64,000 nucleotides of DNA from a virus (IMGVR_UViG_3300029509_000119:63909-127908), one strand, 5' to 3'; counted from the first letter of the stretch, positions 34,300-57,554 are shown. Numbers and translations: made by a program. Notes: generated by a model from the letters alone, not told the origin.

Positions 34300-34345
34300 T
34301 TGATGTTCTCCTACATTCTAGTTATACTGGAATCGTTCACACAAA
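34300..34345 (+). promoter_or_regulatory. conserved promoter/leader motif copy with recognisable -35 (TTGATG-17nt-TATACT)
   Basis: TTGATG at 34300..34305, TATACT at 34323..34328, then GGAATCGTTCACACAAAA. First promoter of the + strand gene array. Confidence 0.55.
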
Positions 34346-34373
34346 ACATGCTTGGAAAACAAAGGGAACAAAA

Positions 34374-34862
34374 ATGATTAAGACCATCACCAACCTCAAA
34401 ATCACCACATCCCACAACCTCTTCGACCAAAACGACACAATCGAATACCTCACCATCGACTACTTGGACGAAGACGGCAACCAGAAACAAATCAAAAACC
34501 TCCCCCATGAAGAGGATGCCGGAATCTACGACGTCAAAACCGACTCTTGGGAAGACATACTCGAAGACTGGCGTCTCACAAAACCCGCCTACATATCATC
34601 CTCAGACAAAGGCTGGGAACTGCTCGAAAGCTATCTCCAACACCTCACCAACACCCAATCTCAAGAATTGGAGGACCGCCAGAACAAACTGTACGAAGCG
34701 GACAAGGTGGCGGATATTCTGCGCAACATCAGCCGTCTCAGCGACGTCGGCAAAGCCGCTTTCGAGGAAATGCTGAACGTTGATTCCGAAAACGTGCGGG
34801 ACGTGTACGCAAAACAGTGGAACCGCATTACGTCGCATCGTTCAGGCAACGGGGAAGACTGA
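34374..34862 (+). CDS. acidic hypothetical protein (162 aa, about 22% D+E)
   Basis: ATG at 34374 with an AAAGGGAACAAAA RBS. First gene downstream of the strongest promoter copy. Confidence 0.55.
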   Translation: MIKTITNLKITTSHNLFDQNDTIEYLTIDYLDEDGNQKQIKNLPHEEDAGIYDVKTDSWEDILEDWRLTKPAYISSSDKGWELLESYLQHLTNTQSQELEDRQNKLYEADKVADILRNISRLSDVGKAAFEEMLNVDSENVRDVYAKQWNRITSHRSGNGED

Positions 34863-34877
34863 GAAAAAGGAGGAAGC

Positions 34878-35093
34878 ATGAGCGTCAAGTTCAACGGATT
34901 CGACTACATCAGCGACAACGACGGCATGGGCATTCATGTCGTCGCGGGAGCCGACGACATCTGGTTGCCGGTCGATGACCGTGAGCGCGTGAGGTTCGCA
35001 CTCGCCGTGCTGGACGGGTTGGAACCCAAGGAGCTGGACGAGGTCGCCTGTCAGTTCGCCTTGGAGAGGAGACGCGGACATGGTTCGCTGTGA
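34878..35093 (+). CDS. hypothetical protein
   Basis: 71 aa. RBS AAGGAGGAAGC 5 nt upstream. Confidence 0.4.
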   Translation: MSVKFNGFDYISDNDGMGIHVVAGADDIWLPVDDRERVRFALAVLDGLEPKELDEVACQFALERRRGHGSL

Positions 35094-35183
35094 CGCCAAA
35101 GGGGCCGTGCTGCGAAGCGACGGCGAACACGAGTTTGTGGATTCCGGTTGCGAATACCGGTATTAACGAAAGAAAGCACGACG

Positions 35184-35363
35184 ATGAGAACCAAAGCCAA
35201 GGAACTGCCAGCCATCCTCACCATCGCAGACACGATGGCCTACCTCTCCTGCTCACGACAGCACATATACGACCTGCTGAAGGCCGGTCGCATCCGCACC
35301 TACAAAATCGGACGACGCCGGTACATCGACGCCGATTCGCTCGCCCACCTGTTCTGGAGTTGA
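35184..35363 (+). CDS. excisionase/AlpA-like HTH_17 DNA-binding protein
   Basis: 'LTIADTMAYLSCSRQHIYDLLKAGRIRTYKIGRRRYIDADSL' matches the MerR-type HTH_17/Xis family. ATG at 35184. Confidence 0.6.
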   Translation: MRTKAKELPAILTIADTMAYLSCSRQHIYDLLKAGRIRTYKIGRRRYIDADSLAHLFWS

Positions 35364-35367
35364 CGCG

Positions 35368-35517
35368 ATGCCGAACGTGAACCGTGTGGTCATGTTGCCC
35401 GCCGAACTGTACCGGCAGACCATGCAGTATGCCGAGCGACATGAAGTCTCGTGGAACGATGCAGTCCGATTGTTGGTCGAACAGGCGCTCGGAGAAGATG
35501 GGGGTGAAGACTTGTAG
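35368..35517 (+). CDS. possible ribbon-helix-helix (CopG/antitoxin-like) protein, 49 aa
   Basis: Not in the ORF track (shorter than 60 aa). MPNVNRVVMLPAELYRQTMQYAERHEVSWNDAVRLLVEQALGEDGGEDL has an RHH-like beta-strand plus two helices. Starts 5 nt after the HTH gene stop. Confidence 0.4.
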   Translation: MPNVNRVVMLPAELYRQTMQYAERHEVSWNDAVRLLVEQALGEDGGEDL

Positions 35518-35558
35518 CCAGTATGTTCCGTGCTTGTTGTGGAGTTGGAACTTTATGT

Positions 35559-35585
35559 ATGCTATACTGGAAATGTCCACATAAA
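35559..35585 (+). promoter_or_regulatory. copy of conserved promoter/leader motif
   Basis: aTGCTATACTGGAAATGTCCACATAAAA. Confidence 0.5.
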
Positions 35586-35612
35586 ACAGGCGGAGCCAAC
35601 CAAGGAGAACGA

Positions 35613-35921
35613 ATGAACGACACCAAAACCTACTACCAGCCAATCTTCCACGATAACGGCACCATCAGCGTGGTCGCCGGAGACAACACCTACGACCACG
35701 CCTACGCAGACAGGCCCATGAACGAAACTATCGTGGAAACCTCCCACAGCAAGCCCAATCCAATCAACTGGAAGCACGTCGTATCCAACTGCGACGAACG
35801 TTGGAACCTCATCAAGGGCGACGCATGCTTGGCGGTTCTGAGCGGCAATTGGGACGTTTTCGAAAGCCGTCACGAAAACAGAATCATGCTCGTCACCCGC
35901 AAGGGAACCCGAATCCTCTGA
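35613..35921 (+). CDS. hypothetical protein
   Basis: ORF 35523..35921 trimmed to 'MNDTKTYYQP...'. RBS AAGGAGAA. The upstream part is promoter read-through. Confidence 0.5.
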   Translation: MNDTKTYYQPIFHDNGTISVVAGDNTYDHAYADRPMNETIVETSHSKPNPINWKHVVSNCDERWNLIKGDACLAVLSGNWDVFESRHENRIMLVTRKGTRIL

Positions 35922-36723: not shown

Positions 36724-37097
36724 TGTCCAGCACGGTCAAGGCCGCACGTTTTCCCGCGTTCTTTTTCAACGGCGTGCGGCAAGGGCTTAAAACCGCGCTT
36801 ATGCCGCACGCTTGCATATCCGACCCGTTGCCTCCCATGCCGACCGTACGCGATTGGCTTCAAGCCCACGGCGGCACCGGCATGGACACGGACGCATTCG
36901 ACCGGTGCGAGAGCGAATGGTATGAACTGCTGGAGCTGCGCGAACGGCAGATGAACGTGTTTTTGGCTGGCTTGTTCGTGGGCACGCTGGTGTATGCGAT
37001 TGCGGCGCTTGCATTGCTGGCGCTTATTGGCTGGTTGTTGTATTCGTTGGTTCCGTTTGATGGTTTCGGACGTTTTGTCGATTGGGTTCGGGGTTGA
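36723..37097 (+). CDS. membrane protein
   Basis: ATG at 36723 overlapping the previous stop (TGATG). C-terminal TM helices 'FLAGLFVGTLVYAIAALALLALIGWLLYSL'. Confidence 0.45.
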   Translation: MSSTVKAARFPAFFFNGVRQGLKTALMPHACISDPLPPMPTVRDWLQAHGGTGMDTDAFDRCESEWYELLELRERQMNVFLAGLFVGTLVYAIAALALLALIGWLLYSLVPFDGFGRFVDWVRG

Positions 37098-37112
37098 GCG
37101 TTTCTCTATTCT

Positions 37113-37140
37113 GTGCTATATTGGAATTGTTCACACAAAA
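37113..37140 (+). promoter_or_regulatory. copy of conserved promoter/leader motif
   Basis: cTGTGCTATATTGGAATTGTTCACACAAAA. Confidence 0.5.
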
Positions 37141-37167: not shown

Positions 37168-37632
37168 ATGCATAACACCTACAAGGAAACCCTCACAGTC
37201 TGGCCTGTCAACGACGCAACCGGACTGCACCTCTTCAGCACTCCGGAAGCCGCCGAAACCTACGCGGACGAACATCAAGGCGACATGTTGGAGCCAATGC
37301 CCGTCATGTCAGCCCGAACCGTCTGGCATTGCGTGGGATTGAGGTTCATTGGTCGAACCTTCGACTGGAACACCTACACCGTCGAGGAACTCGGATACTC
37401 CACAAAGGAACGTCCGGCCACCGCCACTCGTCCTTCTGTTCGGGTCTTTCCTCTAAATGGCGAGGACTTCGTGTTGGAAGTGTGCGCCGAAACCGAAGAA
37501 AAAGCTCACGAATTGGCTGCGTTCCTTGGTGATTCGGTGGTTCGTTGGGTTGCTAAGGAGGGGAAGCAGAAGCCATCCTTGAGCCATCGTCTTGAGCTTG
37601 CCTTAAAGAATTACGTTGAGGGTCGTGTCTGA
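37168..37632 (+). CDS. hypothetical protein
   Basis: ATG at 37168 with an AGGAGAAAAA RBS. 155 aa. Confidence 0.5.
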   Translation: MHNTYKETLTVWPVNDATGLHLFSTPEAAETYADEHQGDMLEPMPVMSARTVWHCVGLRFIGRTFDWNTYTVEELGYSTKERPATATRPSVRVFPLNGEDFVLEVCAETEEKAHELAAFLGDSVVRWVAKEGKQKPSLSHRLELALKNYVEGRV

Positions 37633-37652: not shown

Positions 37653-37682
37653 TGTGCTATACTGGAATTGTTCACACAAAAA
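37653..37682 (+). promoter_or_regulatory. copy of conserved promoter/leader motif
   Basis: TGTGCTATACTGGAATTGTTCACACAAAAA. Confidence 0.55.
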
Positions 37683-37704: not shown

Positions 37705-38631
37705 ATGAGCGACAACATCAACTGGAACGAAACCGCAATCTGCGACTTCCTCCGCTTCGAACACAAACCAGAACTCCAAGCGGCATACGATGACAGGAAC
37801 CTCACCAAACTCGCCAACGCCGGACTGGTACAACGCAACGAAGAAAGACACATGTGGACGCTCACCCAAAAAGGAGAAAAGAAACTAGCCGACATCAGAC
37901 AGCATTTCAACTCCGGCAAACTCTCCGAACTCCCGCTCACGCTCCGAAACTACTACTTCGACTGGGGCGAATACGAGATTCACAACCTGCCGGTCAACGC
38001 ACTTTACCAAGTGGCCCTGCAAGACAAGAGCGCGGAGATTCGCAGAAAAACCGCGGAACTGCTCGACAAGTACGACAAGCTCGACAAGGAAACATCGAAC
38101 GCCCTATCCCACGACAAGGATTGGGAGGTTCGTTATATCGCGGCAAAGAAAGCCGACGTCCACAACTTCTTCAAGGAGGATGACGTGCGCGTGGTCAAAA
38201 ACGTCATCCGCAACCATGACATCGATAAGGAATGCTTGTCCCACTGGCTGGAAAGCCCCTACAGTGGGATTCGCGTACAAGCGGCCCTCTTGTCCGATGA
38301 CAGCGAGGTGGACGAAGTGTTCGAACGACTCGAACCGCCAGACGTGGCCCATGTGCTGGACGTTAAACCTCGGTGGGCGACCCGTGAAATCATTATGAAA
38401 GCGTGGGAGGCGGCCGACGAGTCGGAGCGTTGCGAACTGGTTGAGAATATGAGAGACATGCCGGATTCTTTCATCAATCAGGCGTTTAAGGGCGAAGCTC
38501 GATGGACTCTTCGTCTGCGTATGGAGGATTATCGCAAGGCAGTTCGTCAAGTGTTGGAGTTGGGTGCGATGTTCTCCGAGGACAGTGAGATTCGCCGGAA
38601 GATTTGGGAGCGTGCCAAGCGCGAGATTTAG
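37705..38631 (+). CDS. HEAT/leucine-rich-repeat-variant (LRV) repeat protein
   Basis: ATG at 37705 (RBS AAAAGGA). Repeated '..D.DWEVRYIAAKKAD..' and 'SPYSGIRVQAALLSDD' units are typical of LRV/PBS-lyase HEAT repeats. Confidence 0.55.
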   Translation: MSDNINWNETAICDFLRFEHKPELQAAYDDRNLTKLANAGLVQRNEERHMWTLTQKGEKKLADIRQHFNSGKLSELPLTLRNYYFDWGEYEIHNLPVNALYQVALQDKSAEIRRKTAELLDKYDKLDKETSNALSHDKDWEVRYIAAKKADVHNFFKEDDVRVVKNVIRNHDIDKECLSHWLESPYSGIRVQAALLSDDSEVDEVFERLEPPDVAHVLDVKPRWATREIIMKAWEAADESERCELVENMRDMPDSFINQAFKGEARWTLRLRMEDYRKAVRQVLELGAMFSEDSEIRRKIWERAKREI

Positions 38632-38670: not shown

Positions 38671-38700
38671 TGTGGTATACTGGAATTGTTCACACAAAAA
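38671..38700 (+). promoter_or_regulatory. copy of conserved promoter/leader motif
   Basis: TGTGGTATACTGGAATTGTTCACACAAAAA. Confidence 0.55.
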
Positions 38701-38723: not shown

Positions 38724-39014
38724 ATGTTCACCGCAACCGAATTCACCACCGGCGCGAAGGTCATCGTCAACCCAATCGCCATCCACCGCCCGAACGCCGC
38801 ACATGAGATGCTTCTTATCGCTGACAGCAACACCGGCAATGGTCTGTGGTTCGACCCCAACGACTGCGAATGGTACATTAACCTGCAAGGCGACAGCAAC
38901 CTCATGTATGACGCTGAAGTAATCGAGGGCGTGTACGGTGCGGACGAAAACCGAATGGGAAGCCGCGGCAAACGCGAGGCTTGCCGCATATGGTTTCCAG
39001 TTAGGCGAATTTGA
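38724..39014 (+). CDS. hypothetical protein
   Basis: 96 aa. RBS AAAAGGACAAAACC. Confidence 0.5.
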   Translation: MFTATEFTTGAKVIVNPIAIHRPNAAHEMLLIADSNTGNGLWFDPNDCEWYINLQGDSNLMYDAEVIEGVYGADENRMGSRGKREACRIWFPVRRI

Positions 39015-39410: not shown

Positions 39411-39498
39411 TGGGGAAAATTTCCAAGTCGTGTGGATGCTTTTTGCATTTGCGCGGCTTTTTGTTTTTTTTTTGCGCTTTTGCGCTTTCTTTCAAATA

Positions 39499-39526
39499 TG
39501 ATATACTGGAATCGTTCACACAAATA
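39499..39526 (+). promoter_or_regulatory. copy of conserved promoter/leader motif
   Basis: aTGATATACTGGAATCGTTCACACAAATA. Confidence 0.5.
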
Positions 39527-39543: not shown

Positions 39544-39852
39544 ATGAACGAGTATTTCGCACGATTCGGCGCAGCAGACTACAACATCTTCCACAATGGC
39601 AATGCCTCCTATGTCATGTTGCGTGTCGTGGACGAGGACATGACCTACTTCGCCTTGTTCGAGCACATCGAGGGGCATGACGGCGTTGGCTGTAGGATGT
39701 TCAATTCTCCGACTGAGGTGGTTTTGGATGACGCCGTTGACGAGACGTGCTCCGACGAGCAGCTTGCCGACTTTGTTGGACAGTCTGACACCGCTTTCGT
39801 CCACAACATCAATATCCGTAGGATTCTGTATCGCTCCGGCTTTCTGAACTAA
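39544..39852 (+). CDS. hypothetical protein
   Basis: ORF 39526..39852 with the start moved to 'MNEYFARF...'. The first ATG lies inside the conserved leader. Confidence 0.45.
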   Translation: MNEYFARFGAADYNIFHNGNASYVMLRVVDEDMTYFALFEHIEGHDGVGCRMFNSPTEVVLDDAVDETCSDEQLADFVGQSDTAFVHNINIRRILYRSGFLN

Positions 39853-39960
39853 AAGCATGGGAATACGCCCGCAGGAAAACCGTGTGGGTGTATTCCTTTT
39901 TTCTTATGGGCGGGGATTGCGTCTTCTTTTTTGGTTTGCGTTGTGCTTTACCCCAACTTG

Positions 39961-39987
39961 TGTTATATTGGAATTGTTCACACAAAC
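39961..39987 (+). promoter_or_regulatory. copy of conserved promoter/leader motif
   Basis: gTGTTATATTGGAATTGTTCACACAAAC. Confidence 0.5.
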
Positions 39988-40016: not shown

Positions 40017-40274
40017 ATGTACGTAATCCACTACATCGGCGGCGCAATAAACGTCAAGAAAATGCCCAAAGCCCAAGCAGTCGAATACGCAAAACAAATC
40101 AACGACAACCCCACAGGCGTATTCCCCGAAAGAGTGAAACTCGCACAAAGCGCCGAAGCCCGCGACATCATGCAAAAAAGGCTCTTCGCCCAAAGCATCT
40201 TCCACCGCCACAGCGACGTGTACGGCATGAGCATGAGCGAACTGGTCAACACAGTCAACGAATACTGCTGCTGA
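40017..40274 (+). CDS. hypothetical protein
   Basis: ATG at 40017 with an AAGGAGCA RBS. 85 aa. Confidence 0.5.
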   Translation: MYVIHYIGGAINVKKMPKAQAVEYAKQINDNPTGVFPERVKLAQSAEARDIMQKRLFAQSIFHRHSDVYGMSMSELVNTVNEYCC

Positions 40275-41171: not shown

Positions 41172-41304
41172 AACCGTCCACCGGCGTCTCACGGGTTCTC
41201 CAAGGGGCTGTCCTTTGGCGGACGCTGCCACGAAGTGTCCGCCAGCAAAAATTCTCGGCTGGGGTCAAGTAGGGCGTGTGCTGTTTTTAGGTTTGTCATT
41301 TATA

Positions 41305-41333
41305 TGATATACTGGGATTGTCCACACAAACAA
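41305..41333 (+). promoter_or_regulatory. copy of conserved promoter/leader motif
   Basis: aTGATATACTGGGATTGTCCACACAAACAA. Confidence 0.5.
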
Positions 41334-45588: not shown

Positions 45589-45858
45589 GTGAGCATTCTC
45601 ACCGAGGAACTGGAAGAACGCTATCCCATCGAGGAAGGCGAATGCATCACGCTCACGCGCGAACAGCTCGCCTTGCAGTTGCGCCGAGCATACAAGGCTG
45701 GTGCGACCCGCGATTTCAGGCGTACGGCGCACGGGAATTCGGAACTGTTGAAGGTGTGCAGTATTTTGCAGGAGTCCCGCTTGCTGTCCGATGGAACGGA
45801 TGTCGAGGACGTGGTGAGAACCGTGTTGGACGGTCGGCTCGAAACCATCACGGCTTAA
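45589..45858 (+). CDS. hypothetical protein
   Basis: GTG start with a GAAAGGAAGACAAG RBS. 89 aa. Confidence 0.4.
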   Translation: MSILTEELEERYPIEEGECITLTREQLALQLRRAYKAGATRDFRRTAHGNSELLKVCSILQESRLLSDGTDVEDVVRTVLDGRLETITA

Positions 45859-45859
45859 G

Positions 45860-45884
45860 TGTTATAATGGAGGTGTCCACACAT
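45860..45884 (+). promoter_or_regulatory. copy of conserved promoter/leader motif (TATAAT variant)
   Basis: TGTTATAATGGAGGTGTCCACACATC. Confidence 0.45.
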
Positions 45885-45908
45885 CTTTCCTTGCAGAGGA
45901 GACCGCCG

Positions 45909-47326: not shown

Positions 47327-47491
47327 CGAACATAATCAGGACGCGGCTATGTCCCTTATCGATAACGGGTATGCCGACTATTGGCGTACTCTGTTGGGAC
47401 ACGAGGCCATCAGGCTGACCGACCATGGGCTTGGTGCCGCACGGAGGTTGGAGTCGGATTACTGAGTTCTTAGCGTTTTCCAAATCTCTAT

Positions 47492-47517
47492 TGTTATAGT
47501 GGAACAGTGGGCACAAT
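47492..47517 (+). promoter_or_regulatory. degenerate copy of conserved promoter/leader motif
   Basis: TTGTTATAGTGGAACAGTGGGCACAATA. Confidence 0.35.
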
Positions 47518-47555
47518 ACCGTGCTCGCTGTTTTTCTTTTTTAGGAGAAGTCGGA

Positions 47556-47816: not shown

Positions 47817-47836
47817 TTGTCCTCTTTGAGAGTTTA

Positions 47837-47862
47837 TGTTATACTGGGGGCGTTCACATAAG
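47837..47862 (+). promoter_or_regulatory. copy of conserved promoter/leader motif
   Basis: aTGTTATACTGGGGGCGTTCACATAAGG. Confidence 0.5.
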
Positions 47863-47888
47863 GCCCAGTTGAAAAAAAGGAGAACACC

Positions 47889-48179: not shown

Positions 48180-48182
48180 CCC

Positions 48183-49464: not shown

Positions 49465-49483
49465 AGAAAAAGGAGAAACGAAA

Positions 49484-50403: not shown

Positions 50404-52158
50404 ATGAGGATAAGCGATGGCACGGAGACAATGGAGGTCTCCGTAAAGGAATACGGAGACCACTCCGACAAGGAAATCACCGACCGGGCTCTGCCTCAAC
50501 TGGTCGATTGGGCGGAAACCCCCGGTATCGTAAGAAATGTGCGACGAACATCGCATCGCCTGATGGAACTCTTTGCGAACGATGGGGCGGACGCCCGCAC
50601 GATTCTCGGACACACCCCTTATGGAATGAAGCTGGGACTCAGTATCCGCCTGCACGCACCCGACATTCAGGACGACGAACGCGGCCTGCCGGACGACATC
50701 GGGCTGACGCGATACATGCGCGTCGGCAAGCCAAGCCCGGGCGTCATCGTGGAGACCGAGCTTTATCGCTTGGGAAACGTCCTTCGAGGCCGCAATCTGA
50801 GTGGACTCGACCTGCGATACCTCGACTTTTCCGGAGTGGACCTTTGCGACGTGAACATGTCAGGAGCCGATTTGAGAGGTTCTTTGATCGACTCGGGCAC
50901 ACCTCTCGGCCGCACCGTATTCAACAACGCAGACATGCGTCGCATGAGGTTCGTCGGAAGGCTGGATCCACGCCGTCCCGTCTATCTGGAGGACGCCGAC
51001 CTGCGAGAAGCCGATTTCAGCCGTGCCAACGTAAGCTGGTTCCAGTTCAACGGTTCCGACATGTCGGGCGCGATACTGCGAAACGCCGTCTTCGAATGCA
51101 CGAACATGGAGGGCGTGAACCTTGCCGGGGCCGATGCGACCGGAGCCAGTCTGGGCGACATTGACCTGCGGGAGGCGAATCTGACCGGCGCGGCGATGGA
51201 CAGGGCTTTCTTGGACAGGACGGTGATGGCCGATGCGACCGTAGGCAGGACGAGCGTTCACGGGCTTCGCATCCGCAGGGGCAATGTCCGTCGAGTGGAC
51301 TTCGGACAAGCCCACGGGGCGGGGAGCATGTTCTTCGAGAACACGAAGACAAAGGGGAGCATGCTTCCCGGAAGGTTCGTCAACCATTATTATGACGCCA
51401 GTCTCATAGCCCGGGGGAACGGCTGGAGGCTGAACTACCGCAACAACGGCCTCGACTGTGTGCTTACCTTCGACTGGCGCAACGGATGCCCCGACCCCCG
51501 CACGCTTGGCCACACGCCGGAATGGGCGGACATGGACTACCGCGACAGGGTTGAGGAAATCCGCTTCGTGCCGGGTTCCAAGGCACCGGAGGACATGAGT
51601 GCCTTCTTCGAGGACATGTTCGCCCTGCGCCGGGTGGACTTCACGAATCTGGACATGTCGAAGACCGTCAGTCTGGCATGGATGTTCAACAATTCGGGCT
51701 TCAGGGACGTTGAAATCGTCAACCTGAAGGCCCCGAACGCAAAGGACTGCGAGCGTCTGTTCCGACTTGGCCCCGACGTGACGAGCCTGAAGGTGCCCGG
51801 ATTGGACGTGAGCGGCGCGGAGGTCGCCCGCGAGATGTTCGCCTCGTGGAATCGGATTGCCGAACTGGACCTATCGGAACTGCGGCTGCCGCAGGCCAGG
51901 GACATCAACCGCATGTTCATGTGCTGCGAGCGGCTTCGCAGACTGGACATCTCCAATCTGGAGCTTCCCCCCGACGTGGAGATGGACAACAGGGGGCCGG
52001 CCATGTTCTCCGACTGCGTCTCCCTTGAGCACGTGGACATGCCAACGAAGGGTGCGCTGGCCGACCGGTACGGGGAGACGATGAAACGGTTCAACGCGGG
52101 CGACCGCGGCGTGTTGGAGGCACGGCCGTATCCGCGTGTCACCGTACTCGCCCTGTAA
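50404..52158 (+). CDS. pentapeptide-repeat protein fused to a BspA-type leucine-rich repeat domain
   Basis: The middle region is tandem A(D/N)LxG-type pentapeptides (LSGLDLRYLDFSGVDLCDVNMSGADLRGSLIDSG...). The C-terminus has 'AWMFNNSGFRDVEI', 'REMFASWNRIAELDL', 'NRMFMCCERLRRLDI' and 'AMFSDCVSLEHVDM' LRR_5/BspA-like units. Confidence 0.65.
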   Translation: MRISDGTETMEVSVKEYGDHSDKEITDRALPQLVDWAETPGIVRNVRRTSHRLMELFANDGADARTILGHTPYGMKLGLSIRLHAPDIQDDERGLPDDIGLTRYMRVGKPSPGVIVETELYRLGNVLRGRNLSGLDLRYLDFSGVDLCDVNMSGADLRGSLIDSGTPLGRTVFNNADMRRMRFVGRLDPRRPVYLEDADLREADFSRANVSWFQFNGSDMSGAILRNAVFECTNMEGVNLAGADATGASLGDIDLREANLTGAAMDRAFLDRTVMADATVGRTSVHGLRIRRGNVRRVDFGQAHGAGSMFFENTKTKGSMLPGRFVNHYYDASLIARGNGWRLNYRNNGLDCVLTFDWRNGCPDPRTLGHTPEWADMDYRDRVEEIRFVPGSKAPEDMSAFFEDMFALRRVDFTNLDMSKTVSLAWMFNNSGFRDVEIVNLKAPNAKDCERLFRLGPDVTSLKVPGLDVSGAEVAREMFASWNRIAELDLSELRLPQARDINRMFMCCERLRRLDISNLELPPDVEMDNRGPAMFSDCVSLEHVDMPTKGALADRYGETMKRFNAGDRGVLEARPYPRVTVLAL

Positions 52159-52231
52159 AAGCGCTCGGACGCACGCCGATATGACAATTGACCACGGGGA
52201 CGCATCTGACGAACGGAAAGGAGAATAAGGA

Positions 52232-52909
52232 ATGACTGAAAGACCGTTCATCGTCATCGACTTGGACAACACCTTCGTCGACTACACGACCGCGTTCAAG
52301 GAATGCCTGACCCAAATGGGCTACGACGGCTACGCTGACGCGCCCGACCCGTCGGACTATTCCTTCGCATGTGACGACTGGTTCGAAGACGAGGACACGT
52401 TCTTCCCATTGCACCAGCGTGCCGTGGAACTCGGCCTGTATCTGCGCGAACGCCCCTACGCGGGCGCGTTGGACGTGGTATCCGATGTGGCGCGGCGATA
52501 CTCCGTCCTGTTCGCCACCAGCCGCGAGCGGGATGAGACGGACAGTCTGCGGTGGCTGCACGCCTACGGGTTGGACGCGACCCCGAACTGGAATCTCGAC
52601 CTTTGGCGCGACACGTATCCCGAAACGTTCGAGTGGACCATAAGGGATTCCTGCCGCCGTGATGGAAGCGGAATCCGCTTCTGCCACATCTGGGATAAGA
52701 CGTTTCTGGACGCCGACCTGACCGTCGAGGACAATCCGCATACGCTCGACTGGCTTATGGACAAAGGGTTGCGCGTGCTGGTCAAACGGCACGCCTACAA
52801 CCTGCCCCAATGCGAACGCGCCGAACAATCCGGCTTGGGGTTGTCATTCGACGATTGGACGCAGGTGCCCGCATTGGCGAAACGACTAGTGGAGGAGAAC
52901 GCGAAGTGA
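52232..52909 (+). CDS. HAD-superfamily phosphatase-like protein (possible nucleotidase or polynucleotide 3'-phosphatase)
   Basis: N-terminal 'FIVIDLDNTFVDYT' is the HAD motif I (DxDxT). No P-loop. 225 aa. Confidence 0.5.
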   Translation: MTERPFIVIDLDNTFVDYTTAFKECLTQMGYDGYADAPDPSDYSFACDDWFEDEDTFFPLHQRAVELGLYLRERPYAGALDVVSDVARRYSVLFATSRERDETDSLRWLHAYGLDATPNWNLDLWRDTYPETFEWTIRDSCRRDGSGIRFCHIWDKTFLDADLTVEDNPHTLDWLMDKGLRVLVKRHAYNLPQCERAEQSGLGLSFDDWTQVPALAKRLVEENAK

Positions 52910-53169: not shown

Positions 53170-53176
53170 CCGAATG

Positions 53177-53204
53177 TGTTATACTGGGGGTGTTCACATA
53201 AAAA
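53177..53204 (+). promoter_or_regulatory. copy of conserved promoter/leader motif
   Basis: gTGTTATACTGGGGGTGTTCACATAAAA. Confidence 0.5.
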
Positions 53205-53247: not shown

Positions 53248-53874
53248 ATGCATAGCCTATACAAGACCGCAGGTAAATGCACTCTCAATCGAAACAAAGT
53301 GCGTTACCCCAACCAAAAGGAAGCCCAACTCGCCTTGGCTGTCATCAAAGGACGAGGCAATCCGAAACACACGGAGAAACGCGCATACCATTGCCCCGTC
53401 TGCCACGGATGGCATCTGACCAGCGCCGAAACCGTGAACGACACCATCCTGTCCGGAAGCGTACTCCAGCATACAAATCCAAACGCGTTCAACACCGGCA
53501 TGGAAGCGTTCAAATCCGGTTCCAGACAAGGCAGATACTCCATCAGCAAGGCAAGCCTGACCCGGCGTGTGCGACACCTGCTCCACCTGTTCGCAGCCAA
53601 CGACATTCCGGAGGATTCGTGGGACAACCCATGGTTGTGGGCCACCCTCCGATTCCAAATCATGTGGCATGGCGGCGATGAAAAAGCGGAACAACTGCTG
53701 TCCACTTCGAAAAAGACCGTCAAAATCGCGGGAGACATGCTCGCAGAAGACAAGACGCCGTTCCTTCGCGTGGCTGAAAACCGGAAGGAAGCAAGACGAT
53801 TGCATGATACGCCACTGCCCGCATGGTTGGCCGTGGCATTATTGGCGGATAAAGGAAAGGAACAGGAAAGGTGA
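53248..53874 (+). CDS. hypothetical protein with 'YHCPVCHGWHLTS' zinc-ribbon-like motif
   Basis: ORF 53176..53874 started at 'MHSLYKT...'. 208 aa. Confidence 0.5.
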   Translation: MHSLYKTAGKCTLNRNKVRYPNQKEAQLALAVIKGRGNPKHTEKRAYHCPVCHGWHLTSAETVNDTILSGSVLQHTNPNAFNTGMEAFKSGSRQGRYSISKASLTRRVRHLLHLFAANDIPEDSWDNPWLWATLRFQIMWHGGDEKAEQLLSTSKKTVKIAGDMLAEDKTPFLRVAENRKEARRLHDTPLPAWLAVALLADKGKEQER

Positions 53875-54044
53875 ATGAAGAAGAGCTGAAAGAGAGGGCT
53901 ATCCGTTCCCTTCTCCAATCGAGCCTCGGCAAAGTCTCCCCGGCGGAAGCGTTCGTCATCGGATGGCGCAAAGGCTGGGATGAGGCGTTAGACGTGGCTT
54001 TGGAAATCGTTCGCAAGGAACTCGACGGCGAGGAAGAGTGCTGA
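53871..54044 (+). CDS. possible small protein (57 aa)
   Basis: GTG at 53871 overlapping the previous stop, with an AAGGAAAGG RBS. VNEEELKERAIRSLLQSSLGKVSPAEAFVIGWRKGWDEALDVALEIVRKELDGEEEC. Not in the ORF track. Confidence 0.3.
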   Translation: MNEEELKERAIRSLLQSSLGKVSPAEAFVIGWRKGWDEALDVALEIVRKELDGEEEC

Positions 54045-54086: not shown

Positions 54087-55142
54087 ATGGTTCGAAAAAT
54101 GGTGAGCGTGCAAGCCATCGAAGGCGTGTACCCAATCAAGGATGCAGACCGTATCGAGAAAGCGAAAATCGGAGGATGGATTGTCGTAGTCGCCAAGGAC
54201 ATGGGATTGAAACCCGGCGACCATGTGGCCTATTACGAAATCGACTCCATGCTGCCCGCCGACGACCCACGGTATGCGGAATTGCAGAAACGTGGACAGC
54301 GCACCGTGCCAGTGTCCAACACGATTACCGGCGAAGAACGCGAAATCACCGGACACGTGTTGAAGACCGCAAGACTGCGAGGCGTATACAGTCAGGGTTT
54401 GGTCATGCCGCTCTCGACTATTGGCGTGCCGGAGGATACTCCGGTCGGCACCGACGTCACCTTGCAGGCGAACGTGTGGAAATTCGAGGAACTACCGCCT
54501 TTGAAAGGCGGGGATATGGTTGGCGTGTTCAACGCGCCATGCTCCAAGTCGGACGCTACGCGAGTGCAGAATCTCACCGCGTATTGGGATGAAATCAAAC
54601 GGATTGCGTGGACGCCAACCGTGAAAGTGGATGGCACCAGCACCACAATCTACCGTGACATGGATGATATGGTTCACGTCTATTCTCGAAATTGGGAGTT
54701 GAAGCCGGAATGCACGAACATGCAAGTGGCGGTGAAAACCGGATTGGTTGACGCGTTGGAGAAAGGCATGGTCTGCCAGTTCGAGCTGTGCGGACCAAGT
54801 GTCAACAGCAACAGGTTGAAGCTCGCCTCCTATCGTCCATTCGTGTTCGCCGTATGGCGGGACGGCATGAAACTCGACCGCGAGGATTGGCCGAAAGCCA
54901 TGCTCGACAATGCCGCTCCCCTGTTGGACGAGGACGAATGGAAGCCGACCGGCGATGTGATGGACATGATTGCCAAAGTGGACGGTCTGCGCGGCAACGT
55001 GACCCGCGACTTGTTGGATGAAGGTATCGTCTGGCATGCGAAAGCGGGCGAACGGTTGAGCGACGACCTATATGACGAGCTTGGCGGCAACCGTTGCTTC
55101 AAAATCATCAATAATAAGTATCTGACCAAGCACGGTCTGTGA
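54087..55142 (+). CDS. ATP-dependent RNA ligase (DRB0094/Rnl-like, KxDG adenylyltransferase)
   Basis: Nucleotidyltransferase motif I 'TPTVKVDGTS' (lysine in KxDG). N-terminal 'IEGVYPIKDADRIEKAKIGGWIVVVAKD' resembles the DRB0094-family N-domain. 351 aa. Confidence 0.6.
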   Translation: MVRKMVSVQAIEGVYPIKDADRIEKAKIGGWIVVVAKDMGLKPGDHVAYYEIDSMLPADDPRYAELQKRGQRTVPVSNTITGEEREITGHVLKTARLRGVYSQGLVMPLSTIGVPEDTPVGTDVTLQANVWKFEELPPLKGGDMVGVFNAPCSKSDATRVQNLTAYWDEIKRIAWTPTVKVDGTSTTIYRDMDDMVHVYSRNWELKPECTNMQVAVKTGLVDALEKGMVCQFELCGPSVNSNRLKLASYRPFVFAVWRDGMKLDREDWPKAMLDNAAPLLDEDEWKPTGDVMDMIAKVDGLRGNVTRDLLDEGIVWHAKAGERLSDDLYDELGGNRCFKIINNKYLTKHGL

Positions 55143-55149
55143 TGCGGAA

Positions 55150-55179: not shown

Positions 55180-55182
55180 TTC

Positions 55183-55206
55183 TGTTATATTGGGAGTATT
55201 CGCACC
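55183..55206 (+). promoter_or_regulatory. degenerate copy of conserved promoter/leader motif
   Basis: cTGTTATATTGGGAGTATTCGCACC. Confidence 0.35.
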
Positions 55207-55229
55207 GTCAGATGGATTAGAGGTCGGTC

Positions 55230-55628: not shown

Positions 55629-55643
55629 ACCTGAACTTTTTCT

Positions 55644-55668
55644 TGTTATACTGGAATCAGCCACATTT
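55644..55668 (+). promoter_or_regulatory. copy of conserved promoter/leader motif
   Basis: tTGTTATACTGGAATCAGCCACATTT. Confidence 0.5.
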
Positions 55669-55689
55669 TAGTAAAAGCAAGGAAAACAC

Positions 55690-55959
55690 ATGCCTAGAAC
55701 CACATTGGCCGATGTCGCGTCCGACTATGTGCGCAAACATCAGCACGAACGACAATGCCGACAACTCGACTCCAACAGCCGCGTCACGCTCACAGTAATC
55801 CAAAACCAGTGGGCGAAACTCGCCGGACAGGAACCCATGACCATTTTCGACGCGCCGGAAGTCGTAATCAGAAGCATCGAAAACACGCAACGCGGACACG
55901 AACTGTTCGACCGGACGAAAGAATCAAACGGCGTCGTCTACTACGGGCTGAAGAAATGA
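55690..55959 (+). CDS. hypothetical protein
   Basis: 89 aa. RBS AGCAAGGAAAACAC. Confidence 0.5.
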   Translation: MPRTTLADVASDYVRKHQHERQCRQLDSNSRVTLTVIQNQWAKLAGQEPMTIFDAPEVVIRSIENTQRGHELFDRTKESNGVVYYGLKK

Positions 55960-56357
55960 AAGGGAAAATGTCGGGCACCATTGAAACCTTCGTGCAAGTC
56001 AAGCTCATATTGGCGGACAATCCAGAGGATGGCGGATATTGGCGTACCTGTTGGGACTTATCCGACAATGGGTACGCCATGGACGAATTGCTGAAATCGG
56101 GAAAACTGGAATCAGGTGAAACCGTCCTTCTGTCCACCGGACTATTGCGCAACATGCTTGTCAAAGCGCAAAAAGACGCTCGCGGATTCCAGAACACTCC
56201 TCTAAGCGAATGCTCGCACGGCAGTGAGGCGGAACGGAAAAAGCAGGCTTACAGGTTCGCGGAAATCCTGAACCATGCCCTCTGCGAGGGTTCTCCGGCT
56301 TATTGTTCGGCAGTCGAGCCGAACTTGGATTTGTCGTTCCCGGATTTCGAGGATTGA
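55956..56357 (+). CDS. hypothetical protein
   Basis: ATG at 55956 (ATGA overlap). 133 aa. Confidence 0.5.
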   Translation: MKGKMSGTIETFVQVKLILADNPEDGGYWRTCWDLSDNGYAMDELLKSGKLESGETVLLSTGLLRNMLVKAQKDARGFQNTPLSECSHGSEAERKKQAYRFAEILNHALCEGSPAYCSAVEPNLDLSFPDFED

Positions 56358-56363
56358 GTCGCA

Positions 56364-56873
56364 TTGGGTAGACATTCTAAAAAGAAACCCCGTACGGTTC
56401 CCGCCTCCACCGAGGAGCAGTCGTTCTATGGCATCATCGCCGCCGGTGTGCGGGATGGTGAACTCTGGGTTAGAAAACGTGTGAGACGGTTTGTCGCTAC
56501 CGTTTTGTCTCTGCTTGTATCCATCGCCCTCTGCTGTTGCGGGACGTTCCTTTGGTGGGATACTCAAGGCAAGGTGAAACGCGCACGTATGGAAGCGGAG
56601 AACTCCTGTATCCAGCAGGTCGGCAGCATGACGGAATCATACAATGAAGCGTTCCGCCTGTACGGTCAGGTTGCTTCCAAGTTCGGTGAATTGGACGAAT
56701 CGTATGATTTGGACGCTTTGGCCGCTTTGCAGGACAAGAAGCCGGAGGGATATAAGCTGCTGCATTGCGATACGGATGTGGATGGGGATGTGAGGGAGGC
56801 CAAGGCTTTGAAGCGTTCCTTCGACCGGTTGGCTGTTGAGTATCGCAAGGCTTTGACCCCCGTCGGAAAATAG
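56364..56873 (+). CDS. membrane-anchored hypothetical protein
   Basis: Non-ATG start (uncertain). TM 'FVATVLSLLVSIALCCCGTFLWW'. 169 aa. Confidence 0.4.
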   Translation: MGRHSKKKPRTVPASTEEQSFYGIIAAGVRDGELWVRKRVRRFVATVLSLLVSIALCCCGTFLWWDTQGKVKRARMEAENSCIQQVGSMTESYNEAFRLYGQVASKFGELDESYDLDALAALQDKKPEGYKLLHCDTDVDGDVREAKALKRSFDRLAVEYRKALTPVGK

Positions 56874-56921
56874 TTGCCATAGCGCTGGGGTTGATTCCCC
56901 GCCTACCTTTAAACACTCTCG

Positions 56922-56948
56922 CGTTATATTGGGTTTGTCCACATATGG
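56922..56948 (+). promoter_or_regulatory. copy of conserved promoter/leader motif
   Basis: gCGTTATATTGGGTTTGTCCACATATGG. Confidence 0.45.
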
Positions 56949-56960
56949 TAATATGAGGTC

Positions 56961-57494
56961 ATGACTGGCATAACCCATGAAAAAGAAATCCTGATGATTA
57001 GAATCGGATACGCACCCCGACGAGGCCGCGTATACTTCCAACCGCGAACCGTAATGCAGGAATACCTCCGATTCAGCGAACAGCACGACGACCACATCCT
57101 CTGGAAATGCGGCATCATCGGAGTCATGCGAAACGTGGAGCAGGTCATCCTGTACGCGCACGACGAAGACCTCATGCTCATAGGCGAAGTCGCCGGTTTC
57201 GGAAGCCCCTACAATCCACGGACATGGGACGAGGGAAGCTTCTACCAATGTCCTAAACCTTGGTCGATGGAACCCGCGAAATACTGGATAGCGTTGGATA
57301 ATTTGAGACCGTTGGAGGACTTCGACCCCGACATGTACGAACTCGCAGCCGGTAAGGACGAAGGCAAGCCGCTGTCTCTCGTGTTCGAACGGAAGGTGCC
57401 CATGCTCACCATGGCGGATTCCGAAGGCAATCGCAGGAAGGTGACGACTTCCCGTCGTTCCGTCCTTACGCGCGTCCGACTCCGAGAAGTGTGA
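56961..57494 (+). CDS. hypothetical protein
   Basis: 177 aa with an ATG start. The antisense ORF 56637..57515 is antisense-like in composition. Confidence 0.5.
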   Translation: MTGITHEKEILMIRIGYAPRRGRVYFQPRTVMQEYLRFSEQHDDHILWKCGIIGVMRNVEQVILYAHDEDLMLIGEVAGFGSPYNPRTWDEGSFYQCPKPWSMEPAKYWIALDNLRPLEDFDPDMYELAAGKDEGKPLSLVFERKVPMLTMADSEGNRRKVTTSRRSVLTRVRLREV

Positions 57495-57527
57495 ATGATT
57501 CCAGTATTTGGACATATTTTACGCAAA

Positions 57528-57554
57528 CCACTATACTGGAATCAGTCACATAAG
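57528..57554 (+). promoter_or_regulatory. copy of conserved promoter/leader motif, preceded by an inverted copy of its core at 57489..57520
   Basis: ccaCTATACTGGAATCAGTCACATAAG. Upstream 'gtgtgaatgattccagtat' is the reverse complement of the core (17 of 18 identical to the + copy), giving an ~18-bp inverted repeat with a ~25-bp spacer. Confidence 0.5.

What the first reader, a model, noticed from the sequence alone, without database searches (positions are those of the whole stretch)
34300..57554. At least 16 near-identical ~26-nt promoter/leader elements (TGnTATACTGGAATyGTTCACACAAA) precede individual genes across a 23-kb co-directional array
Copies lie at 34318, 35559, 37113, 37653, 38671, 39499, 39961, 41305, 45860, 47492, 47837, 53177, 55183, 55644, 56922 and 57528. 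Each sits 20-45 nt upstream of an RBS and start codon, usually right after the previous stop or a hairpin. The 5' half is an extended -10 (TG-n-TATACT), and only the first copy has a good -35 (TTGATG-17-TATACT). The 3' half (GGAATyGTTCACACAAA) is conserved well beyond what a -10 needs. It would form the first ~15 nt of each transcript or an operator overlapping -10/+1. Conservation of promoter plus leader in about 20 copies resembles phage early-promoter families or repressor-controlled leading-region regulons. It implies that ~45 cargo genes (ArdC, Lar, DnaQ exonuclease, RNA ligase, pentapeptide protein and others) fire together, for example on entry into a recipient or on induction.
Basis: seen in the sequence. 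Interest (0 to 1): 0.85.

Follow-up and report, generated by a model that had tools for sequence, protein, structure and literature searches.

The report
Bifidobacterial megaplasmid promoter box family
The repeats are real copies of a promoter box already published for the Bifidobacterium megaplasmid pMP7017, here found in a divergent relative; what reads the conserved part at the transcript start is still unknown, and the boxes also mark where gene cassettes are gained and lost.

Summary
All 16 listed copies exist. A scoring matrix built only from relatives gives them 15.8-45.8 bits, against 14.3 for the best of 30 shuffles. Six more copies lie outside the reported range, on both strands.

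The window is part of a ~180-kb metagenomic megaplasmid distantly related to B. breve pMP7017 (VirB4-like ATPase 66% identical). Dineen et al. 2024 (PMC10832533) already described this motif in pMP7017. They found 19 copies overlapping the -10, predicted them to drive 56 genes, saw activity in RNA-seq, and found none in chromosomes. So the kind is known; this is a new lineage with a variant consensus.

The element has two blocks at fixed spacing: an extended -10 (TRTGnTATACTGG) and an 11-12-nt box starting at the predicted +1 (GTYCACAYAAA).

New here:
- The +1 box is kept at orthologous promoters whose flanks have diverged to random identity.
- Three plasmid lineages carry lineage-specific variants.
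- Leaders are A-rich and unstructured.
- Homology breakpoints between relatives fall inside the box (13 of 74 against 2.1 expected), with exact cassette deletions joined through it.

The leading-region, fire-on-entry idea is not supported. The factor that reads the +1 box remains unidentified.

The parts
34318..34346 (+). Promoter box copy (-17..+12), CTAGTTATACTGGAATCGTTCACACAAAA. Heads gene 34374-34862. Divergent from the AAA ATPase gene 33056-34222(-).
   Evidence: 39.4 bits. -35 TTGATG at 17 bp. Leader 39 nt. Orthologous to pMP7017 copy 173725(-).
35558..35586 (+). Promoter box copy with the GTCCACAT variant. Heads gene 35613-35921.
   Evidence: 43.6 bits. Leader 38 nt.
37112..37140 (+). 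Promoter box copy. Heads gene 37168-37632. A terminator-like hairpin lies upstream at 37054-37072.
   Evidence: 41.7 bits. -35 TTGAGC at 17 bp and the hairpin.
37653..37681 (+). Promoter box copy. Heads gene 37705-38631 (HEAT-repeat protein). Cassette junction in relatives.
   Evidence: 45.8 bits. Homology blocks of 8 loci start here and 2 end at +22. In L111 its upstream flank is joined through the box to the 39964-type cassette.
38671..38699 (+). Promoter box copy. Heads gene 38724-39014.
   Evidence: 45.4 bits. -35 TTGGGA at 17 bp.
39497..39525 (+). Promoter box copy. Heads gene 39544-39852. Preceded by a terminator hairpin at 39425-39459. Cassette junction in relatives.
   Evidence: 40.4 bits. 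Hairpin. Six homology blocks end at +22. L027, L112 and L129 lack this cassette, with the junction inside the box.
39959..39987 (+). Promoter box copy. Heads 40017-40274 and the ArdC-N/M78 peptidase gene 40317-41171.
   Evidence: 41.6 bits. Seven homology blocks start here. ArdcN and Peptidase_M78 domains.
41303..41331 (+). Promoter box copy. Heads 41365-41727 and downstream genes, including the ATP-grasp gene 41979-43010.
   Evidence: 41.8 bits. Leader 45 nt.
45858..45886 (+). Promoter box copy (diverged). Heads the 3'-5' exonuclease gene, whose true start is about 45909 and which ends at 46493.
   Evidence: 21.9 bits. RNase_T domain. Orthologous to pMP7017 copy 81979(+) before its exonuclease gene.
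47490..47518 (+). Degenerate copy. The +1 box is replaced by GTGGGCAC, which forms a terminator-like hairpin (47501-47534) in the leader of 47556-47816.
   Evidence: 15.8 bits. Hairpin.
47835..47863 (+). Promoter box copy (GGGGGC spacer). Heads an operon of about 5 kb, 47889-52909, that includes the pentapeptide-repeat protein.
   Evidence: 33.1 bits. -35 TTGTCC at 17 bp. Pfam Pentapeptide.
53175..53203 (+). Promoter box copy. Heads 53248-53874, 53871-54044 and the RNA ligase gene 54087-55142.
   Evidence: 40.0 bits. RNA_ligase and PHA02142 domains. In pMP7017 the RNA ligase gene lies in the operon behind copy 125864.
55181..55209 (+). Diverged copy (ATTCGCAC box). Heads 55230/55236-55628.
   Evidence: 17.5 bits.
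55642..55670 (+). Diverged copy (AGCCACAT box). Heads 55690-55959.
   Evidence: 19.8 bits. Leader 31 nt.
56920..56948 (+). Copy (GTCCACAT box). Heads 56961-57494.
   Evidence: 26.0 bits.
57527..57555 (+). Copy (AGTCACAT box). Heads 57569-58096 and downstream genes up to the VirB4-like ATPase gene.
   Evidence: 18.5 bits. Orthologous to pMP7017 copy 83817(+).
2392..2420 (-). Additional copy outside the reported range. Heads 1648-2370(-).
   Evidence: 28.5 bits. Leader 33 nt.
5554..5582 (-). Additional diverged copy. Heads 5199-5540(-). Orthologous to pMP7017 copy 36118(-).
   Evidence: 16.3 bits..
6023..6051 (-). Additional copy. Heads 5622-5993(-). Orthologous to pMP7017 copy 35196(-).
   Evidence: 33.1 bits..
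28526..28554 (-). Additional copy in the backbone. Heads small genes ending with 27851-28261(-). Orthologous to pMP7017 copy 56070(-).
   Evidence: 39.5 bits..
28618..28646 (+). Additional weak copy, the divergent partner of 28526-28554(-). It mirrors the divergent pair 56070(-)/56120(+) in pMP7017.
   Evidence: 16.6 bits. The pMP7017 pair.
31299..31327 (+). Additional copy just after the dnaB homologue. Heads the SPFH/Band 7 gene 31341-32720.
   Evidence: 25.7 bits. Band_7 domain. Leader 25 nt.
545..594 (.). Marginal back-to-back pair of box-like promoters: 545-573(-) with a TAAAAT -10 and GTCCACAC, and 566-594(+) with CATACT and ACTCACAAAA. They lie in the intergenic region upstream of the HTH gene 813-1184.
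   Evidence: 8.5 and 13.7 bits, at or below the shuffle maximum of 14.3. The +1 box alone scores 15.2 bits at 557(-). Sequence read directly.

Best explanation
The repeats are the family-specific promoter cassette of pMP7017-type bifidobacterial megaplasmids. Each copy has two blocks held at a fixed 6-nt distance. Block A (-17..-5, T-R-T-G-n-TATAcT-G-G) is a Gram-positive/actinobacterial extended -10 for the host housekeeping sigma factor, with only a weak TTG at -35. Block B (GTYCACAYAAA) starts at the predicted +1. Each copy fires a short transcription unit with a 25-56-nt A-rich, unstructured leader. Together the copies express about 40 mostly orphan or anti-restriction accessory genes in 34-59 kb, plus several backbone genes elsewhere in the window. 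This much is shown by sequence, by comparison with relatives and, for the homologous pMP7017 copies, by published RNA-seq. Inferred, at about 45%: block B is a binding site at +1 for a still unidentified megaplasmid-encoded protein (an operator or roadblock) that tunes the whole set together. Shown comparatively: the ~30-bp boxes are also where relatives differ by whole cassettes. Recombination between copies therefore adds and removes promoter-plus-gene modules, and probably homogenises the boxes within each plasmid lineage.
For: Identity of the replicon: the VirB4-like protein is 66% identical to that of pMP7017. The backbone at window 6-31 kb is syntenic with pMP7017 35-59.5 kb. The window lies on a ~180.6-kb metagenome contig.

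Same motif family: 26 hits above 12 bits in pMP7017, consensus ATGTTATACTGAATATGTCCACATAAAA. The published description gives a 34-bp motif overlapping the -10, 19 copies, 56 genes, six highly expressed, and absence from chromosomes.

Not a generic promoter: a degenerate scan of 185,579 species genomes gave only 7 single hits, none in a Bifidobacterium record and none multi-copy. IMG/VR gave 119+ stretches on 67 contigs of 10-217 kb.

Two-block anatomy: a logo of 288 unique instances peaks at -15..-5 and at +1..+11, with a small TT peak exactly at -35/-34.

Coupling: in the window all 19 block A hits are followed by a block B-like sequence. Of 335 strong block B sites in relatives, 294 (88%) have block A at the canonical offset.

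Purifying selection: in six orthologous window/pMP7017 promoter pairs the flanks are 26-29% identical (random) and block B is 67% identical.

Tie to initiation rather than translation: the distance to the -10 is fixed, while the leader varies from 25 to 56 nt.

Leaders: 41-48% A. MFE of +1..+50 is -5.4 and -3.1 kcal/mol, against -10.6 and -12.0 for random genomic 50-mers.

Cassette junctions: 62 of 273 homology-block ends lie within 40 nt of a box, against 14.1 +/- 8.2 for random positions. Thirteen of 74 unique breakpoints lie inside the 44-nt box window, against 2.1 expected (P = 1.8e-7). Exact cassette-less junctions through a chimeric box occur in L027, L112, L129 and L111.

Lineage-specific variants: GAATAT-GTCCACAT, GGAATT-GTTCACAC and GTAACA-GTCCACAC.
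Against: No transcription start site has been mapped at base resolution, here or in the paper. The published RNA-seq 5' ends were refined by hand and are about 20 nt uncertain. No binding protein is known. Block B has only a 3+3 dyad (TGTnnACA), which is not significant. The -16/+8 complementarity is weak within a lineage (p = 0.02), and most changes there are one-sided. High expression of the best copies in steady-state cells argues against tight repression. Homogenisation by gene conversion could explain part of the similarity. In pMP7017 it extends through the leader and the ribosome-binding site. The breakpoint enrichment is measured against random positions, not against other intergenic positions, and BLAST will extend any block into a conserved box.
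Confidence: 0.6

Rival explanations
1. Cis-only expression module. Block B has no dedicated binding protein. It is an optimal initial transcribed sequence or mRNA 5' end that promotes promoter escape, resistance to 5'-dependent RNases, or ribosome standby on a CA/A-rich leader. Its uniformity is maintained mainly by copy-and-paste and gene conversion among promoter cassettes.
For: The motif was discovered among the most highly expressed pMP7017 genes in steady state. Leaders are A-rich and unstructured. In pMP7017 the similarity runs on through the leader and ribosome-binding site (TAATCGAAAGAGGAAA), as expected for duplicated cassettes. Copies demonstrably recombine with each other. A few block B sites with a ribosome-binding site but no -10 persist upstream of the same gene in diverged relatives. 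That fits a function in the RNA.
Against: Seven positions of block B are near-invariant across three lineages whose backbone proteins are about 50-66% identical, and at orthologous promoters with randomised flanks. Promoter escape and RNA stability rarely need such specific bases. The distance to the start codon varies from 25 to 56 nt, so the box is not part of a fixed ribosome-binding architecture.
Confidence: 0.28
2. Leading-region entry regulon. The boxes are promoter/operators of genes that fire together when the plasmid enters a recipient and are then shut off by a plasmid repressor.
For: The cargo includes anti-restriction-type functions: ArdC-N/M78, a region homologous to the pMP7017 Lar-family gene and its downstream neighbour, and a pentapeptide-repeat protein. 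An orphan methylase lies nearby. The 23-kb array is co-directional and sits just upstream of the VirB4-like gene.
Against: Copies occur on both strands across the whole backbone, in the window and in pMP7017. In pMP7017 they precede ssb and lie in the region between repA and the next annotated gene. Six are highly expressed in exponentially growing established carriers. No hairpin that could form a single-strand promoter surrounds them, and the leaders show no structure. The origin of transfer and the direction of transfer are unknown.
Confidence: 0.1
3. Promoters for a plasmid-encoded polymerase or alternative sigma factor. The ~29-bp conservation from -17 to +12 resembles T7-type promoters.
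For: The length and position of the conserved block, spanning the start site, resemble promoters of single-subunit polymerases. Large backbone ORFs have no Pfam match (1302 aa and 886 aa).
Against: Block A is a textbook TRTGnTATAAT-like extended -10. A TT peak sits exactly at -35/-34. The generic sigma-70 scan picks up six copies. No sigma or polymerase domain was found in the window proteins scanned. None is annotated in pMP7017.
Confidence: 0.03
4. Primarily a recombination or mobile sequence (attC-like or MITE-like), with the promoter resemblance secondary.
For: Breakpoints between relatives are concentrated inside the box, and exact cassette deletions pass through it.
Against: The box is always oriented with the downstream gene, 25-56 nt from a start codon. 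It lacks terminal inverted repeats or a hairpin. No integrase was found among the array proteins scanned. The homologous copies sit at promoters of expressed transcription units in the published RNA-seq analysis. Many breakpoints also fall at gene boundaries that have no box.
Confidence: 0.05

Closest known systems
The conserved 34-bp promoter motif of megaplasmid pMP7017 (Dineen et al. 2024, Microb Biotechnol 17:e14405, PMC10832533)
   Same: It has the same two-block sequence (TGnTATACTG-N5-GTYCACAYAAA) and the same position overlapping the -10, at most 60 nt before start codons. It occurs on the same plasmid family, is multi-copy and plasmid-wide, and is absent from chromosomes. Six promoter positions are orthologous between the two plasmids.
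   Different: The window belongs to a different lineage. It has no megablast match to any PLSDB plasmid backbone, and core proteins are about 50-66% identical. Its consensus differs: GGAATY-GTTCACAC against GAATAT-GTCCACAT. The AWAY upstream extension and the conserved leader and ribosome-binding site are missing. Copy density is higher: 22 in 64 kb against about 26 in 190 kb.
PeSLs, the promoter-plus-stem-loop cassettes of T4-type phages (Arbiol et al. 2010, PMC2839356; Comeau et al. 2014, PMC4122927)
   Same: A highly conserved promoter is repeated before individual small accessory genes in hyperplastic regions. Insertions, deletions and replacements between close relatives have their junctions in the repeated promoter element.
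   Different: This is a plasmid of an actinobacterium, not a phage of a proteobacterium. The conserved extra part is a +1 box, not a stem-loop. Only some copies have a terminator hairpin just upstream. Copies also serve backbone genes.
Stoperators of cluster A mycobacteriophages (L5, Bxb1). This comparison rests on my own knowledge, not on a source checked here.
   Same: Both are asymmetric 12-13-bp sites present in tens of copies, always oriented with transcription, on an actinobacterial mobile element. A few block B sites occur without a promoter inside transcribed regions.
   Different: 88% of block B sites are locked to a -10 at a fixed distance, whereas most stoperators are not at promoters. 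No immunity repressor has been identified here.
Global plasmid regulons with repeated operators (KorA/KorB of IncP-1; the ArdK/StbA/KorA network of R388). This comparison rests on my own knowledge.
   Same: Many promoters across a conjugative plasmid share one operator that overlaps the core promoter, which gives coordinated control of backbone and anti-restriction genes.
   Different: Those operators are palindromes with known repressors. Block B is essentially asymmetric, and no regulator is known.

Membership tests
pMP7017-family 34-bp promoter motif (Dineen et al. 2024) | Sequence matches AWAYATGYTATACTGAATATGTCCACATAAAAWA | tested here: met
   A matrix from the window copies finds 26 sites in pMP7017, including the published consensus. 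A matrix from relatives scores the window copies 15.8-45.8 bits. The core TGnTATAcTG-N5-GTYCACAYAAA is shared. The AWAY extension and positions -5, +3 and +8 differ by lineage.
pMP7017-family 34-bp promoter motif (Dineen et al. 2024) | Overlaps the -10 of a promoter within about 60 bp of a translation start | tested here: met
   All copies include TATAnT. Predicted leaders are 25-56 nt.
pMP7017-family 34-bp promoter motif (Dineen et al. 2024) | Carried by a pMP7017-related megaplasmid and precedes comparable genes | tested here: met
   The backbone is syntenic, with 30-66% protein identity. Six promoters are orthologous. The source contig is about 180 kb.
pMP7017-family 34-bp promoter motif (Dineen et al. 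2024) | Absent from chromosomes | tested here: met
   An exact-pattern scan of one genome per species (185,579) gave 7 single hits, none in a Bifidobacterium record and none multi-copy. Only exact matches to the degenerate pattern are detectable.
pMP7017-family 34-bp promoter motif (Dineen et al. 2024) | Transcriptionally active promoter | not testable with these tools
   RNA-seq exists only for pMP7017. There are no expression data for this window.
Sigma-A (sigma-70 type) extended -10 promoter | TGn at -15/-14 plus a TATAAT-like hexamer. Optional TTG at -35 with a 17 +/- 1 bp spacer. | tested here: met
   The family logo shows T-15, G-14, TATAcT and a small TT peak at -35/-34. The generic scan flags six copies at >=9/12.
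Sigma-A (sigma-70 type) extended -10 promoter | Transcription starts 6-8 nt downstream of the -10 | not testable with these tools
   Needs 5'-RACE or dRNA-seq. The +1 used here is inferred from spacing.
Repressor-operator regulon (KorA/KorB-like or immunity-repressor-like) | A cognate DNA-binding protein encoded by the element | tested here: inconclusive
   The candidates are only circumstantial. A winged-HTH gene (813-1184) with an ImmA/IrrE peptidase gene next to it is syntenic in pMP7017. pMP7017 also has an XRE gene and a WhiB gene, which were not found in the captured DNA of window-lineage relatives. Only about a third of the plasmid is in the window.
Repressor-operator regulon (KorA/KorB-like or immunity-repressor-like) | Dyad-symmetric operator | tested here: not met
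   Block B has only TGTnnACA. The -16/+8 complementarity is driven by lineage. Within the window lineage it is 58 against 47.7 +/- 4.7 (p = 0.02), with mostly one-sided changes.
T4-type PeSL mobile regulatory cassettes | Indel and replacement junctions between close relatives lie in the repeated promoter element | tested here: met
   Thirteen of 74 breakpoints lie in the boxes, against 2.1 expected. Exact junctions occur in L027, L112, L129 and L111. Caveat: the null model used random positions, not intergenic ones.
T4-type PeSL mobile regulatory cassettes | Composite promoter plus conserved stem-loop | tested here: not met
   There is no conserved hairpin. Only 3 of the 12 copies between 34 and 54 kb (37117, 39502, 39964) have a terminator-like hairpin just upstream. 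The logo is flat outside -17..+12.
Mycobacteriophage stoperators | Most sites lie away from promoters, inside transcribed regions | tested here: not met
   88% of strong block B sites are coupled to block A at a fixed offset.
Single-strand (Frpo-type) leading-region promoters | A long imperfect hairpin that recreates -35 and -10 in single-stranded DNA | tested here: not met
   No local inverted repeats surround the copies. Flanks are not conserved.

The most novel reading that the evidence does not exclude
The +1 box may be the operator or roadblock site of an unidentified megaplasmid-encoded factor whose specificity has drifted with the box in each of three plasmid lineages. This would act like an immunity-group system for megaplasmids. 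The same 30-bp promoter box would also act as the recombination substrate that lets these plasmids swap ready-to-express gene cassettes. That would be a plasmid counterpart of T4 PeSLs, functionally convergent with integron cassettes but without an integrase.
Probability: 0.25. Interest if true: 0.6.

Novelty: new member of a known kind. Interest (0 to 1): 0.35.

Why it matters
About a quarter of the genes of these gut-commensal megaplasmids sit behind one promoter box, including their anti-restriction functions. According to the 2024 paper, pMP7017-homologues are present in roughly 10% of the microbiome samples screened, mostly from infants and/or mothers. Whoever finds what reads the +1 box will hold the main switch of the plasmid family. 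The box is also a compact, strong, plasmid-specific expression signal that could be useful for Bifidobacterium engineering. The cassette-junction result suggests how such plasmids assemble and reshuffle their large sets of orphan genes. The basic finding, however, is already in the literature.

Tried and rejected
- Exact window consensus in species-representative genomes: no hits, so the source replicon is not in that collection.
- Megablast of 34-46 kb and of the 6-31 kb backbone against plasmids and phages: only a TnpB gene matched.
- tRNA and Rfam scans of the window: nothing.
- Pfam, PHROGs and NCBIfam on the first gene of nearly every cassette and on the large backbone ORFs: almost all orphans. 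No regulator appeared among them.
- RNA structure in the leaders: none. They are less structured than random DNA.
- Hairpin or single-strand promoter idea: no local inverted repeats.
- Dyad operator spanning -16..+8: pooled complementarity is highly significant, but it is a lineage effect. After collapsing orthologues within the window lineage it is marginal, and the changes are one-sided. I do not rely on it.
- pMP7017 WhiB and XRE regulators as candidates: no homologue in the window or in the captured DNA of window-lineage relatives, but coverage is partial.
- The XRE gene of pMP7017 carries a perfect +1 box plus ribosome-binding site inside its annotated ORF. This is unexplained.
- The two 886-aa ATPases are not paralogues.

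Full report

Yes. A 23-mer search with up to 3 mismatches gave 11 hits against 0.00 expected from shuffles. All 16 listed positions carry the element when read directly. A matrix built from the 16 copies scores them 24-45 bits, against 10.8 for the best of 20 shuffles. A matrix built only from relatives in IMG/VR scores them 15.8-45.8 bits, against a maximum of 14.3 in 30 shuffles. The repeat finder recovers the family on its own.

The reported set is incomplete. Six more copies above the shuffle maximum lie at 2392-2420(-), 5554-5582(-), 6023-6051(-), 28526-28554(-), 28618-28646(+) and 31299-31327(+). A marginal back-to-back pair lies at 545-594. Each copy sits 25-56 nt, counted from the predicted +1, before a start codon with a Shine-Dalgarno-like sequence.

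**2. What replicon is this?**

- The 886-aa VirB4-like ATPase (59819-62479) is 66% identical to that of the B. breve megaplasmid pMP7017, and about 63% identical to those of B. longum megaplasmids.
- Window 6-31 kb is syntenic with pMP7017 35-59.5 kb, and window 55.7-63.2 kb with pMP7017 82.9-88.2 kb. Protein identities are 30-66%.
- The same protein is encoded on ~180.6-kb metagenome contigs whose gene order matches the window.
- No PLSDB plasmid or phage record matches at the DNA level, except for a TnpB gene.
- GC content is 54.6%, against 57.4% for pMP7017.

The window is therefore about a third of a megaplasmid from a distinct lineage of the pMP7017 family.

**3. The element is already described.**

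Scanning the whole of pMP7017 with the window matrix finds 26 sites with the consensus ATGTTATACTGAATATGTCCACATAAAA.

Dineen et al. 2024 (PMC10832533) report exactly this. They describe a conserved 34-bp motif, AWAYATGYTATACTGAATATGTCCACATAAAAWA, overlapping the -10 of six highly expressed genes. They found 13 further copies and predicted that the set drives 56 genes, about 24% of coding capacity. They call it a likely transcription-factor binding site. They also state that it is present before comparable genes in pMP7017 homologues and absent from bifidobacterial chromosomes. They do not name a factor.

**4. Anatomy.**

A degenerate pattern found only 7 single hits in 185,579 species genomes, none in a Bifidobacterium record and none multi-copy. 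In IMG/VR it found 119+ stretches on 67 contigs of 10-217 kb. Many of these are 82-93% identical to the window.

From 288 unique instances the logo has two blocks:
- -15..-5, TGnTATACTGg, with t at -17 and R at -16. From my own knowledge this matches the Gram-positive TRTG '-16 region' and the actinobacterial TAnnnTgg consensus.
- +1..+11, GTyCACAyAAa.

Between them lies a less conserved AT-rich spacer. A small TT peak falls exactly at -35/-34.

The two blocks are locked together. In the window every block A hit is followed by a block B-like sequence. Of 335 strong block B sites in relatives, 294 have block A at the canonical offset.

The distance from block B to the -10 is fixed. Its distance to the start codon varies from 25 to 56 nt. 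This ties block B to initiation of transcription rather than of translation.

Leaders are 41-48% A and unstructured, with MFE -5.4 and -3.1 against -10.6 and -12.0 kcal/mol for random genomic 50-mers. No hairpin or inverted repeat surrounds the copies.

**5. Selection and concerted evolution.**

Six promoters are orthologous between the window and pMP7017. Their flanks are 26-29% identical, which is random, while block B is 67% identical and the -10 is kept. The box is therefore maintained by selection and not only by recent duplication.

The family splits into lineages with their own variants:
- pMP7017-like: GAATAT-GTCCACAT, almost invariant.
- Window-like: GGAATT-GTTCACAC, with minority C at +3 and T at +8.
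- A third lineage: cTCACG-TGATAyACTGT-nnnn-GTCCACAC, on plasmids whose VirB4 is 64% identical.

In pMP7017 the similarity continues through the leader and the ribosome-binding site. This points to homogenisation among copies.

**6. Cassette junctions (new here).**

Homology blocks between the window and its relatives end near the boxes far more often than at random positions: 62 of 273 ends within 40 nt, against 14.1 +/- 8.2. After clustering, 13 of 74 unique breakpoints lie inside the 44-nt box window, against 2.1 expected (binomial P = 1.8e-7).

Two concrete cases:
- In L027, L112 and L129 the upstream flank of box 39502 is joined through a chimeric box to the leader and gene of cassette 39964. 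The 102-codon cassette 39544-39852 is missing.
- In L111 the flank of box 37658 is joined through the box to the 39964-type cassette. The genes between 37705 and 39852 are missing.

This is the behaviour described for PeSLs in T4-type phages (PMC2839356, PMC4122927).

Three caveats apply. The null model used random rather than intergenic positions. Many breakpoints also fall at boundaries without a box. BLAST extends any block into a conserved box.

**7. What reads block B?**

This is not resolved.

- The first genes of the cassettes and the large backbone ORFs are almost all orphans.
- A winged-HTH gene (813-1184) has weak PHROG hits to phage regulators or repressors. It is followed by an ImmA/IrrE peptidase gene (about 1190-1705). 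The pair is syntenic in pMP7017 and lies next to the marginal divergent box pair at 545-594. The arrangement recalls ImmR/ImmA switches, but nothing links it to block B.
- A dyad spanning -16..+8 looked promising in pooled data. It is mostly a lineage effect. Within the window lineage it is marginal (p = 0.02), with one-sided changes.
- A few block B sites with a ribosome-binding site but no -10 persist before the same gene in diverged relatives. One sits inside the annotated XRE ORF of pMP7017. These fit a roadblock or an RNA-level role better than a pure promoter-escape role.

**8. Verdict.**

The promoter reading is sound. The operator reading is plausible and is the published hypothesis. 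The idea of a leading-region set that fires on entry is not supported, for two reasons. The boxes serve backbone genes on both strands. The homologous promoters are highly active in established carriers.

The kind of element is known, and this is a new lineage-level member. I put the promoter role at about 0.9. For block B, I put a trans factor at about 0.45 and a cis-only role at about 0.3.

Noticed in passing
window 813-1705 (+), with the intergenic region 506-812: A winged-HTH gene (813-1184) has weak hits to phage regulator and repressor families. It is followed by an ImmA/IrrE-type metallopeptidase gene (about 1190-1705). The pair is syntenic with pMP7017 24932-26028 and looks like an ImmR/ImmA-type repressor and anti-repressor switch. 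Two marginal back-to-back box-like promoters (545-594) lie upstream.
   Followed up: partly
window 43799-45037 (-): An IS200/IS605-type TnpB gene interrupts the co-directional array. It is 96-97% identical in DNA to copies on B. longum megaplasmids, although the rest of the window has no DNA-level match there. This suggests a shared host range and recent exchange of the insertion sequence.
   Followed up: partly
L012-L130 (IMG/VR contigs): Sixty-seven contigs of 10-217 kb in the viral collection carry the box, many with 10-21 copies in the DNA captured. These look like pMP7017-family megaplasmids filed as viruses. Whether any is a true phage-plasmid was not examined.
   Followed up: no
window 47490-47534 (+): In one degenerate copy the +1 box is replaced by a sequence that forms a 14-bp terminator-like hairpin with a T run, inside the leader of gene 47556-47816. 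It could be an attenuator or a decaying promoter.
   Followed up: no
L002 10372 (pMP7017 60372, +); L003 7050 (107050, +) and 47857 (147857, -): These are perfect +1 boxes followed by an A-rich leader and a ribosome-binding site, but with no -10 upstream. The first is conserved before the same gene in several relatives whose upstream sequence differs. The second lies in frame inside the annotated XRE regulator ORF 106877-107530.
   Followed up: partly
window 12510-16418 (-) and 17456-20116 (-): Two large conserved backbone ORFs (1302 aa and 886 aa) are 43% and 59% identical to pMP7017 proteins and have no Pfam match at E <= 0.01. The second is annotated as an AAA ATPase in pMP7017. It is unrelated to the other 886-aa protein, the VirB4-like ATPase at 59819-62479.
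   Followed up: partly
window 40317-41171 (+): The anti-restriction ArdC N-terminal domain is fused to an M78/IrrE-type peptidase domain. The gene contains short exact direct repeats at 40596-40635 and 40684-40720.
   Followed up: no
window 50404-52158 (+) and 58489-59673 (+): A 584-aa protein combines pentapeptide repeats with a DUF285-like region, and a 394-aa protein has LRV/HEAT repeats. Both sit in box-driven operons. A shorter pentapeptide protein is also box-driven in pMP7017 (186108-186914).
   Followed up: no
family-wide logo, positions -16 and +8: The base at -16 and the base at +8 are complementary more often than expected: G/C in the window and third lineages, A/T in the pMP7017 lineage, and T/A in two window copies. 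The signal is strong when pooled but only marginal within one lineage.
   Followed up: yes
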